Of a DNA stretch of 64,000 nt, positions 8,329 to 9,477 are shown piece after piece. Position 1 is the first letter of the stretch; every line of letters starts with the position of its first letter. Origin of the DNA: Octopus sinensis. Taxonomy: Eukaryota. The notes under the pieces were generated by a model. That model ran no database searches. It worked only from the letters and a program-made list of their open reading frames with translations, and was not told where the DNA came from. Position numbers and translations under genes: made by a program. Location of the stretch: assembly GCF_006345805.1 (NCBI RefSeq), contig NC_043024.1, positions 18,848,001 to 18,912,000 of the forward strand, written 5' to 3'.

Positions 8329-8611
8329 TTATATATATGTATATATGTATATATATATATGTATATGTATGTATATATATATGTATATATATATATATAT
8401 ATATGTATATATATATATATATATATATATATATATATATATATATATATATATATATATATATATATATATATATATATATATATATATATATATATAT
8501 ATATATATATATATATATATATATATATATATATATATATATATATATATATATATATATATATATATATATATATATATATATATATATATATATATAT
8601 ATATATATATA
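8329..8611. repeat. (TA)n microsatellite
   Basis: About 280 bp of nearly pure TA. Confidence 0.95.
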
Positions 8612-8827
8612 GCAATAATAATTCTCTAAATGAGATATAGACAGTAACTGCTCCATAACATAAGGGACTAAAGCCATCTGAATATGGCTAGGGACAAGGC
8701 AGGGTGGTGGGGGTGTTACTGTTGCATTTAGCCCCAGGCGAACATCAACGTCGCCAGATAGGCTTGACACCATCACGGCGTCCTCTATCCTGCAAAGGGA
8801 GATAATTCCCCGATGAAGCGGAAACCA

Positions 8828-8872
8828 CACACGGACCTAGGTTTCAAGGTGTTTGCCTATTATCAACGTGTG
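8828..8872 (-). ncRNA. Minimal type I hammerhead ribozyme, U3-A8 core variant (inverted copy)
   Basis: Reverse complement of 9181-9225. Confidence 0.7.
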
Positions 8873-9180
8873 GTAGGCACCGCTTCCTCGACGAAAAACT
8901 CACTCTGCAGGATATTTATATATAGATTTTCAAGCAAGGCGACGTTGATGTTCGCCTGGGGCTAAATGCAACAGTAACACCCCCACCACCCTGCCCTGTC
9001 CCTAGCCATATTCAGATGGCTTTAGTCCCTTATGTTATGGAGCAGTTACTGTCTATATCTCATTTAGAGAATTATTATTGCTGTCGAACAGATTTTCGAA
9101 ATCAGCAAATGTATTTTGCTTGAAAATCTATATATAAATATCCTGCAGAGTGAGTTTTTCGTCGAGGAAGCGGTGCCTAC

Positions 9181-9225
9181 CACACGTTGATAATAGGCAA
9201 ACACCTTGAAACCTAGGTCCGTGTG
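9181..9225 (+). ncRNA. Minimal type I hammerhead ribozyme, U3-A8 core variant
   Basis: CACACG-TTGATAA-tAGGcaaacaCCTt-GAAA-CCTAG-GTC-CGTGTG: perfect 6-bp stem I, palindromic stem III ACCTAGGT, GUC cleavage triplet. Confidence 0.7.
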
Positions 9226-9477
9226 TGGTTTCCGCTTCATCGGGGAATTATCTCCCTTTGCAGGATAGAGGACGCCGTGATGGTGTCAAGCCTATCTGGC
9301 GACGTTGATGTTCGCCTGGGGCTAAATGCAACAGTAACACCCCCACCAACCTGCCCTGTCCCTAGCCATATTCAGATGGCTTTAGTCCCTTATGTTATAT
9401 ATATATATATATATATATATATATATAAATATCCACAGCTTTGAATAAATTTATATATATCGACTTAATATGCTGAA

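What the first reader, a model, noticed from the sequence alone, without database searches (positions are those of the whole stretch)
8611..9397. 360-bp retrozyme-like element whose hammerhead has a compensatory U3-A8 catalytic core
Seen: CACACG-TTGATAA-stem II-GAAA-CCTAG-GTC-CGTGTG, present twice (9181 plus, 8828 minus), inside a non-coding 360-bp monomer with a partial tandem repeat and a circularly permuted inverted copy, all within (TA)n. Known: hammerhead C3 and G8 form a Watson-Crick pair needed for catalysis, and minimal HHRs with palindromic stem III are typical of PLEs and animal non-LTR retrozymes. Inference: the double change C3U + G8A preserves that pair, which suggests selection for cleavage. 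CUGANGA-based motif searches would miss this family. The permuted monomer-plus-overlap layout fits reverse transcription of a circular or multimeric RNA.
Basis: partly seen in the sequence, partly recalled or inferred. Interest (0 to 1): 0.85.

Follow-up and report, generated by a model that had tools for sequence, protein, structure and literature searches.

The report
Hammerhead retrozyme inserted by Penelope machinery
A 360-base non-coding repeat carrying a self-cutting hammerhead RNA motif has landed in a TA microsatellite in the pattern that Penelope-like jumping genes leave; its unusual core base pair is real but already known, and the newer point is a folded RNA shape, including an unexplained module behind the ribozyme, that a distant sister repeat has kept.

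Summary
In detail: a type I hammerhead with a U3-A8 core (9181-9225 +, 8872-8828 -) in a 360-bp non-coding unit within (TA)n. The two copies come from one insertion and are not independent. U3-A8 and the U10.1.U11.1 mismatch are published natural variants, and this scan noted U3-A8 before on other DNA (27 notes). The motif is not minimal: it keeps the Schistosoma-type loop contacts. In three DNA-type or unlabelled runs U3 shows no listed variant, while position 8 is G in 23-46% of laid depth; related copies have C3-G8. So U3-A8 is a shared allele, not proven consensus, and selection for cleavage is unproven. The layout (inverted 5'-truncated copy, partial tandem, 44-nt one-sided tail) is the textbook Penelope-like insertion; both arms cross the cut site, so the template was a circle or an uncleaved multimer. 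A sister family 13 kb away (canonical core, 59% identical) keeps the same fold (27 of 59 pairs changed on both sides), including a two-hairpin module behind the ribozyme that matches no Rfam family. Verdict: a non-LTR retrozyme variant moved by a Penelope-like element; cleavage and circles untested.

The parts
8331..8610 (.). (TA)n / (TATG)n microsatellite, left side of the insertion target
   Evidence: sequence; no target-site duplication can be read inside it
8611..8937 (-). Inverted, 5'-truncated copy, 327 nt: equals 9116-9398 followed by 9039-9082
   Evidence: one C>T difference
8611..8654 (-). 44-nt one-sided 3' extension (PLE 'tail'), equal to 9039-9082; its end lies 223 nt after the cut site, as the sister family's end lies 228 nt after its cut site
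   Evidence: tail concept from PMC8557442 and PMC11167929
8828..8872 (-). Second copy of the hammerhead (core 8866-8860, cut site after 8834), identical to the + copy
8938..9038 (+). 5'-truncated partial unit (101 nt) that forms the pseudo-LTR-like direct repeat; blunt junction with the inverted copy, no microhomology seen
9039..9398 (+). Full 360-nt unit, non-coding; head-to-tail joint 9398->9039 seen in contigs of 4 of 4 runs laid
9139..9267 (+). Long rod (extended stem I) with the hammerhead at its tip; outer 12-bp helix 9139-9150/9256-9267
   Evidence: circular fold; 7 of 12 outer pairs changed on both sides in the sister family, (alignment fitted to the structure)
9181..9225 (+). Type I hammerhead: stem I 9181-9186/9220-9225; core U3 U4 G5 A6 U7 A8 A9 at 9187-9193; U10.1.U11.1 (9194/9207); stem II 9195-9197/9204-9206; loop 2 CAAACA; GAAA 9208-9211; cut after C9219; loop-contact nucleotides C9180, U9226, A9203
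   Evidence: loop-contact positions compared with PMC2632901 passages
9211..9218 (+). 8-nt palindrome forming a weak stem III alone or an 8-bp intermolecular helix in a dimer (-11.4 kcal/mol)
   Evidence: a different palindrome (inner two bases swapped) in loose ends of X3 and X7
9271..9326 (+). Conserved two-hairpin module behind the ribozyme: hairpin A 9271-9287, stem B 9290-9293/9319-9322, hairpin C 9298-9316 with GUYGAU loop, then UAAA
   Evidence: no Rfam match
9399..9427 (.). (TA)n, right side of the insertion target
22696..23123 (-). Sister family, copy a (hammerhead core CUGAUGA at 22957; 94-nt inverted piece 23031-23123; ends in (AT)n at 22696): comparator, not part of the same insertion
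21799..22172 (-). Sister family, copy b (core at 22006), inside a 927-nt local duplication (97%), so not independent of copy a

Best explanation
A young genomic insertion of a non-autonomous, hammerhead-bearing retroelement (animal non-LTR retrozyme) that is copied by the RT/GIY-YIG protein of a Penelope-like element (PLE). Steps: (1) tandem source loci are transcribed (inferred); (2) the type I hammerhead, probably slow and helped by dimer pairing of the stem III palindrome, cuts after C9219 and unit-length RNA may be ligated to a circle, the long rod holding the ends together (inferred from known retrozymes; not shown); (3) the PLE protein nicks both strands of a (TA)n tract and primes cDNA at two template sites 44 nt apart (inferred from the two 3' ends; mechanism shown for another PLE in vitro); (4) one cDNA ran 461 nt and the other 327 nt, both across the cut site, so the template was a circle or an uncleaved multimer (deduced from sequence); (5) the two were joined head to head, giving the inverted copy, partial tandem and one-sided tail (layout shown). 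The U3-A8 core is one allele in a series C3-G8, U3.G8, U3-A8 present in the family. This locus has one sense hammerhead, so it cannot itself release a unit by double cleavage.
For: Anatomy and chance level. Layout matches every item of the PLE insertion description: partial tandem, inverted 5'-truncated copy, 30-40-bp tail at one end, (TA)n bias (PMC8557442 passages); two RT start sites explain the tail and both strands are cleaved and extended (PMC11167929 parts 1-2). Unit size and type I hammerhead fit retrozymes (150-450 bp; mussel 350-390 bp; axolotl motif with a U.U at the base of stem II that cleaves better as dimer; PMC7229834 parts 2-4). Multi-copy in several organisms: 20 of 24 listed runs hold half or more of the words, 5 organisms, 11 studies; 1220, 395 and 234 contigs laid in X1, X3, X7; joint 9398->9039 in 4 of 4 runs; in X12 (RNA by guess) one 373-nt contig closes on itself as a 343-nt unit. 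No coding signal: longest stop-free run 88 codons is reached by 218 of 2000 shuffles and is not kept in the sister family. Fold is conserved: circular MFE z = -5.5 (100 shuffles); a structure model of this unit scores the sister family 63.4 and 61.3 bits against 18.5 and 19.6 bits for sequence alone; 24 same, 27 both-side, 4 one-side, 4 broken of 59 pairs; the sister family has the same layout and a 3' end at the homologous distance. PLE coding remnants occur in the same window.
Against: No cleavage, ligation or expression was shown; contigs cannot tell a circle from a tandem array and the joint stands in DNA-type runs too. In a type III hammerhead scan all single and double changes in this core region other than the C3G/G8C swap had low activity (PMC9901934), and hammerhead activity was not needed for PLE insertion in vitro; 8 of 9 Xenopus retrozyme dimers did not cleave. 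Local folding favours a slipped, inactive stem I register (0.62 against 0.38; active fold 5.7 kcal/mol above the minimum, 3.0 for the sister family). No sequence link to an autonomous PLE was found: the four PLE-flank comparisons in the window gave E >= 0.23. The structure model also gives 62.4 and 37.2 bits to antisense readings of this unit, so part of the bit gain is generic rod shape; the pair counts come from an alignment fitted to the structure and from one independent comparator. The one unit-length contig in X12 lacks 19 nt at 9263, which removes part of the outer helix and one arm of hairpin A. Two of 7 family variants at paired sites break a pair.
Confidence: 0.8

Rival explanations
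1. Same PLE-mobilised element, but the ribozyme of this subfamily is dead or nearly so: C3U and G8A are two neutral transitions in a motif no longer under selection, and the element spreads from uncleaved tandem transcripts without any circle.
For: U3.G8 is 23%, 46% and 33% of laid depth at 9192 in X1, X3, X7 and the only form in X12; a loose-end consensus of 9 contigs shows a core with a further U4C change. Hammerhead mutants did not impair PLE insertion in vitro and unprocessed RNA was the main substrate. Low activity of non-swap double mutants in one scan. Slipped stem I register predicted. Both cDNAs cross the cut site.
Against: Of 13 core positions only position 8 has a listed variant among the 25 rows of the table (weak: about one is expected by density); stem III variants stay palindromic; loop-contact nucleotides are kept; natural U3-A8 and U10.1.U11.1 motifs are reported active (PMC3088659 passages); stems I-III have diverged with pairing kept relative to the sister family, which at least shows past selection.
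Confidence: 0.3
2. The 360-bp unit is only the terminal (pLTR) piece of an autonomous PLE, left by severe 5' truncation, not a self-standing non-autonomous family.
For: Same insertion signature as autonomous PLEs; a decayed PLE RT/GIY-YIG remnant ends just left of the same (TA)n tract (7193-8049); opposite-strand hammerhead pairs 100-700 bp apart were ascribed to truncated PLEs; retrozymes derive from pLTRs.
Against: The unit joins head to tail with no ORF, in the window and in 4 of 4 runs; the share of laid contigs that run on into unlike sequence is 0-0.01 in the three large runs; a closed 343-nt unit in X12. The hammerhead is canonical, whereas metazoan PLE motifs are mostly minimal. No similarity to the neighbouring PLE's ends.
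Confidence: 0.1
3. An ordinary satellite or minisatellite unit amplified at DNA level (unequal crossing-over, fold-back inversion), with the hammerhead as a passenger.
For: Tandem joint present in DNA; inverted duplications can arise by replication template switching; satellite-type amplification is discussed for retrozymes.
Against: Dispersed 1.3-unit copy in (TA)n with a one-sided tail; a second family in the window repeats the same layout and 3' end position; single-strand fold conserved with compensatory changes; no microhomology at the inversion junction.
Confidence: 0.05

Closest known systems
Animal non-LTR retrozymes (Cervera & de la Pena 2020, PMC7229834; Li, Clavereau & Pollet 2026, bioRxiv 10.64898/2026.07.22.740005), closest: mussel 350-390-bp repeats and axolotl HHR_Amex2 repeats
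   Same: Unit of a few hundred bases, no ORF, one canonical type I hammerhead per unit, short stem III, U.U at the base of stem II (as HHR_Amex2), highly self-paired unit, head-to-tail joints, co-occurrence with PLEs.
   Different: U3-A8 / U3.G8 core (not mentioned for retrozymes in the parts read); this locus is 1.3 units plus an inverted copy and tail rather than a long array, and has no readable target-site duplication; a conserved module behind the ribozyme is not described in the parts read (the supplement of PMC7229834 could not be read); expression and cleavage untested.
Penelope-like element insertions (pLTR, inverted 5'-truncated copy, tail; PMC8557442; PAc mechanism, PMC11167929)
   Same: Partial tandem, adjacent inverted 5'-truncated copy, extension at one end only, (TA)n target, hammerhead upstream of the two inferred RT start sites.
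   Different: No RT/EN ORF; tail 44 nt rather than 30-40; canonical rather than minimal hammerhead; autonomous partner not identified.
Natural U3-A8 hammerhead variants (Perreault et al. 2011, PMC3088659; S. mansoni Cercyon PLE min-HHRs, PMC4209133)
   Same: Same covariation of the 3-8 pair; the identical UUGAUAA core is listed for S. mansoni.
   Different: Here it sits in a tertiary-contact-bearing type I motif together with U10.1.U11.1, and the U3.G8 intermediate and C3-G8 form occur in the same family.
Schistosoma mansoni Sm-alpha type I hammerhead (loops described in PMC2632901)
   Same: 6-bp stem I, internal loop with 5'-most U and 3'-most C, six-base loop 2 from C to A (CAAACA here, CAAAUA there).
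   Different: Stem II of 3 pairs over a U.U mismatch, U3-A8 core, palindromic stem III, much longer rod.

Membership tests
Type I hammerhead ribozyme | Three stems round the core with stem I open | tested here: met
   stem III only 2-3 bp as a monomer, 8 bp as a dimer
Type I hammerhead ribozyme | Strict consensus core C3 U4 G5 A6 N7 G8 A9 / G12 A13 A14 / A15.1 U16.1 H17 | tested here: not met
   U3 and A8 replace C3 and G8; the other 11 positions match. The deviation is a documented natural covariation.
Type I hammerhead ribozyme | Watson-Crick complementarity of positions 3 and 8 | tested here: met
   U-A in this locus; U.G in 23-46% of laid depth in three runs
Type I hammerhead ribozyme | Loop 1-loop 2 contact nucleotides (IL1 5' U, IL1 3' C, loop 2 3' A) | tested here: met
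   U9226, C9180, A9203; the same in the sister family, compared with passages of PMC2632901; by sequence only
Type I hammerhead ribozyme | Match to an Rfam hammerhead model | tested here: not met
   no hammerhead hit at E <= 5 or 10; the canonical-core sister family is missed as well, so the miss is not specific to U3-A8
Type I hammerhead ribozyme | Self-cleavage after H17 | not testable with these tools
   needs a transcription assay
PLE minimal hammerhead (min-HHR) | Stem II 7-8 bp, stem I 4-5 bp with poorly defined loop 1 | tested here: not met
   stem I 6 bp plus long rod, stem II 3 bp against the description in PMC4209133
Animal non-LTR retrozyme | Repeat unit of 150-450 bp with one type I hammerhead | tested here: met
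   360 bp; 343-nt variant in X12
Animal non-LTR retrozyme | Head-to-tail tandem organisation | tested here: met
   partial tandem in the window; joint 9398->9039 in 4 of 4 runs. Two consecutive complete hammerhead-bearing units, the 'active' criterion of Li et al., are not present at this locus and could not be tested elsewhere.
Animal non-LTR retrozyme | Non-coding | tested here: met
   longest open run at chance level, 218 of 2000 shuffles; frame not kept in the sister family; no tRNA
Animal non-LTR retrozyme | Multi-copy in the genome | tested here: met
   hundreds of differing contigs per run; no copy number can be given, no genome held
Animal non-LTR retrozyme | Expressed as linear and circular unit-length RNA | tested here: inconclusive
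   a self-closing contig in a run guessed to be RNA; contigs cannot tell circle from tandem, and the joint is in DNA-type runs
Animal non-LTR retrozyme | No PBS/PPT or true LTRs | not tested
   no dedicated search; the direct repeat is a partial tandem, not a flanking LTR pair
PLE-type insertion | Partial tandem, adjacent inverted 5'-truncated copy, one-sided tail, AT-rich or microsatellite target | tested here: met
   against PMC8557442 passages; tail 44 nt, slightly above the quoted 30-40
Autonomous Penelope-like element | RT plus GIY-YIG ORF within the element | tested here: not met
   no ORF in 8611-9398
Twister-sister or TS-like ribozyme (for the downstream module) | 5- and 6-nt catalytic internal loop between stable P1 and P2 | tested here: not met
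   partial likeness by eye only; P1 would be 3 weak pairs competing with the conserved hairpin A, the sister family cannot form P2 in that register, the CAAG strand varies at 9288 and 9289; no Rfam hit

The most novel reading that the evidence does not exclude
The two-hairpin module behind the ribozyme (9271-9326) is an undescribed structured RNA signal by which retrozymes load the PLE reverse transcriptase and set its two start sites, and this family has walked its hammerhead from C3-G8 through U3.G8 to U3-A8 because a slower ribozyme keeps the circle or multimer intact long enough to be copied. The pair of families would then give the first defined cis element for PLE parasitism and a natural allele series for testing why retrozyme circles do not cut themselves. 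(That the module is itself a new small ribozyme is not excluded, about 0.04.)
Probability: 0.2. Interest if true: 0.72.

Novelty: new variant of a known kind. Interest (0 to 1): 0.42.

Why it matters
The headline feature (U3-A8) is ordinary. What adds value: (1) PLE mobilisation of animal retrozymes has been argued from co-occurrence and pLTR similarity; this locus shows the full PLE insertion signature on a bare retrozyme unit, and a second family in the window repeats it. (2) One family carries three states of the 3-8 pair, a ready-made series for asking whether cleavage rate is under selection, and for the open question of what keeps retrozyme circles from re-cleaving (raised in PMC7229834). 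(3) A conserved module of unknown role lies between the cut site and the inferred RT start sites, where a PLE protein bound its own RNA in vitro. No paper on hammerheads or retrozymes in octopus or cephalopods came up in searches, and a recent octopus repeat annotation has no mention of ribozymes in its main text; the animal group is my recalled guess from neighbouring repeats, not a tool result.

Tried and rejected
No whole genome is held, so no copy census. Rfam: nothing relevant at 8000-10000, 9039-9390 or 22720-23010. Collection scans: 0 hits in metagenome contigs for a 26-nt stretch and for a hammerhead pattern; 0 and 2 hits in viral contigs and 1 in prokaryote genomes, the three hits lacking the stems; a loose 16-base module pattern gave 120 chance-level viral loci, of which I scanned the first 80 plus L003 with the module model, best 11.6 bits, used as a control. 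No RNA holder listed by record. Earlier notes by sequence and by place: nothing. Twister-sister reading of the module: rejected (membership table). Other ribozyme classes were considered from memory only and fit poorly; not tested beyond Rfam. tRNA-like reading: ARAGORN 0 genes. Coding reading: chance. Link to the neighbouring PLE remnant or to the second PLE at 49380-51633: none. A TATA-like stretch at 9128-9138 as promoter: not tested; the conserved outer helix begins upstream of where such a transcript would start, which argues that the folded RNA is multimeric or circular (inference). Paper searches for C3U/G8A wording gave nothing useful; PMC6765202, PMC6155905 and PMC2837043 passages gave background only; Lunse et al. 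on dimeric PLE hammerheads is not held. The first hammerhead scan also listed 4 loose rows at 4721, 20198 (twice) and 57406, which I dropped because they fail the stem II and palindrome filters.

Full report
1. Observation. The period is 360 bp, and the inverted arms are 99% complementary. A hammerhead descriptor gives 4 hits in the window against 1 in all 60 block-shuffled windows; the 4 hits are two elements, each duplicated. The three overlapping copies of this element differ at 2 sites only, and one of them (9349 A) is nearly absent from public runs, so the insertion is young and the two hammerheads are one observation.

2. The hammerhead. It is a canonical type I motif, not the minimal PLE type. 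Stem I is 6 bp and continues, after an internal loop ending in UAC on one side and starting with UG on the other, into a rod of about 40 bp. Loop 2 is CAAACA. The three nucleotides named as the loop-loop contact in the Schistosoma structure (internal-loop U1 and C8, loop 2 A6; PMC2632901, passages) are all present. Two features are atypical, U3-A8 and a U10.1.U11.1 mismatch. Both are published: Perreault et al. report natural U3-A8 covariation, active in vitro, and a U10.1-U11.1 start of stem II (PMC3088659, passages); Cervera and de la Pena found about 1,300 U3-A8 motifs in S. mansoni (PMC4209133, parts 1-2 of 4; supplement passages with the same core; one supplement file not searched); an axolotl retrozyme has the U.U and cleaves better as a dimer (PMC7229834, parts 2-4 of 6). 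Against full activity: in a type III scan only the C3G/G8C swap rescued, all other single and double changes there were low (PMC9901934, passages), and folding predicts a slipped stem I register at 0.62 against 0.38 for the active one (such programs do not see tertiary contacts, so this is weak).

3. The family. Of 24 runs listed, 20 hold half or more of the sampled words; they come from 5 coded organisms and 11 studies (one may be the source sample). I laid 4 of them on 9039-9398. At position 8 (9192) G makes up 23%, 46% and 33% of the laid depth in X1, X3 and X7 (shares) and is the only form in X12; there is no T>C row at position 3 (9187). So U3-A8 is shared by many copies in three organisms, and U3.G8 is common beside it. 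These shares lean to the window's allele: depth in X1 collapses over the core (763 at 9202 against more than 700,000 at 9231-9242), because copies with a one-base longer loop 2 and other indels do not lay. Loose ends from such copies show G8, and a consensus of 9 contigs reads as a C3-G8 core with a U4C change. Loose ends in X3 and X7 show stem III with its two inner bases swapped, still a palindrome, as expected if it pairs between two copies. The head-to-tail joint 9398->9039 stands in 4 of 4 runs. In X12, a run guessed to be RNA, one 373-nt contig covers 9319-9398 then 9039-9348, overlapping itself by 30 nt: a closed 343-nt unit with U3.G8 and a 19-nt deletion at 9263. Contigs cannot tell a circle from a tandem array.

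4. The layout. Read outward from the blunt junction 8937/8938, the right arm is a 101-nt partial unit plus a full unit ending at 9398; the left arm is 283 nt ending at the same point plus 44 nt more. This is the described PLE insertion: partial tandem, adjacent inverted 5'-truncated copy, 30-40-bp tail at one end, (TA)n bias (PMC8557442, passages). For a purified PLE protein both target strands are cut and extended, AT-rich DNA is preferred, reverse transcription starts at two internal sites whose spacing is the tail, and uncut RNA is the main template (PMC11167929, parts 1-2 of 4). Deduction: cDNAs of 461 and 327 nt both cross the cut site, and a doubly cleaved linear monomer would end 179 or 223 nt from these starts, so the template was a circle or an uncleaved multimer. 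The layout alone does not choose between them. A decayed PLE RT/GIY-YIG remnant lies at 7193-8049, but shares no sequence with the unit; its position is best read as shared taste for (TA)n.

5. A sister family and a conserved fold. At 22696-23123 and 21799-22172 (minus strand, locally duplicated) lies a second family with a canonical CUGAUGA core, the same U.U, the same internal loop, a palindromic stem III, an inverted 94-nt piece and a 3' end 228 nt after its cut site, against 223 nt for the tail end here. It is 59% identical over 221 nt (E 1.7e-5), and the part behind the hammerhead aligns above all 1000 shuffles. A covariance model built from this unit alone scores it 63.4 and 61.3 bits, a sequence-only model 18.5 and 19.6. 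Of 59 modelled pairs, 24 are the same, 27 changed on both sides, 4 on one side and 4 are broken. Caveats: that alignment is fitted to the structure, there is one independent comparator, and antisense readings of the unit score 62.4 and 37.2 bits from rod symmetry. Within the family, 22 of the 25 listed differences fall in the modelled region; 15 are at unpaired sites and 7 at paired sites, of which 5 keep the pair, where 118 of 192 sites are paired (I drew two short helices after seeing that table, so this is soft).

6. The downstream module. Tested alone, a 67-nt model of 9266-9332 finds the sister family at 32.8 bits (rough E 4e-7; next best 11.0) where sequence alone gives E 0.19. As a control, 81 unrelated loci picked for matching conserved letters of the module reach at most 11.6 bits (80 of the 120 loci, plus L003). 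Of its 16 pairs 9 are the same, 4 changed on both sides, 2 on one side, 1 broken. It has no Rfam match, and a twister-sister reading fails (PMC11620745, passages; membership table). It lies between the cut site and the two inferred RT start sites, the region that a PLE protein needed on its own RNA, so my best guess is an RT-loading or positioning signal (inference, about 0.3); a role in transcription or ligation is open. Against a strict need: the X12 unit has lost one arm of hairpin A.

7. Comparison and novelty. It works like an animal non-LTR retrozyme and meets the sequence-level features of that family; expression, circles and cleavage are untested. Li et al. argue PLE origin from co-occurrence and pLTR similarity in vertebrates, and saw cleavage in 1 of 9 dimers (preprint, parts 1 and 3 of 5 and passages); in what I read they do not use insertion anatomy. 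Earlier notes of this scan report U3-A8 cores in 27 findings from at least 22 genomes and PLE-type insertions of other non-coding units; these are unchecked AI notes and add no independent support. Claims of absence from print rest on searches of an open-access library; the unread supplement of PMC7229834, the closed supplements of the preprint and the paper not held could hold a U3-A8 retrozyme or this module. The animal group (octopus-like) is recalled from neighbouring repeats and comes from no call.

8. Verdict. Real, well-formed, and mostly explained: a retrozyme variant with a known core covariation, inserted by PLE machinery.

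Noticed in passing
window 22696-23123 and 21799-22172, minus strand: Sister retrozyme family with canonical CUGAUGA core, U10.1.U11.1, 10-nt palindromic stem III and a PLE-type inverted piece; duplicated in a 927-nt local repeat (97%).
   Followed up: yes
window 44135-44080 minus, within 43788-44478: Third hammerhead candidate (canonical core, U.U at the base of a long stem II, palindromic stem III, one mismatch in stem I) inside a 547-bp unit with a 145-nt partial tandem (99%) between TA-rich tracts; not found by the models of the first family. 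Three hammerhead-bearing non-coding families in one 64-kb window.
   Followed up: partly
window 7193-8049 +: Frameshifted PLE remnant: RT C-terminal part, Cys-rich linker (Neptune-like by the description) and GIY-YIG domain (Pfam E 0.0096, below cut-off; 72-81% identical to P0001/P0002, the latter with an RT domain); ends at the same (TA)n tract. A possible decayed minimal hammerhead near 8130-8185 was seen by eye only.
   Followed up: partly
window 49380-51633 +: Second, very AT-rich broken ORF set that looks like an RT plus GIY-YIG PLE by eye; no Pfam support for the two pieces scanned; no hammerhead found in its 3' region by the scan.
   Followed up: partly
run X12, record 11: A 931-nt contig of depth 51 matches only 9312-9344 and continues on both sides with diverged but related sequence: a further subfamily or a longer host transcript.
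   Followed up: no
window 8611-9398: A transcript across the whole locus would fold back on 283-nt arms of 99% complementarity, a long double-stranded RNA that could feed silencing or editing.
   Followed up: no
window 22329-22505 and 23290-23455: Self-complementary (73%) MITE-like stretch next to the sister family, part of the same local duplication.
   Followed up: no
window 62951-63052 and 63204-63305: Two copies, 253 bp apart, of a stretch that scores weakly (10 bits, E 0.23) with the structure model; probably an unrelated repeat.
   Followed up: no
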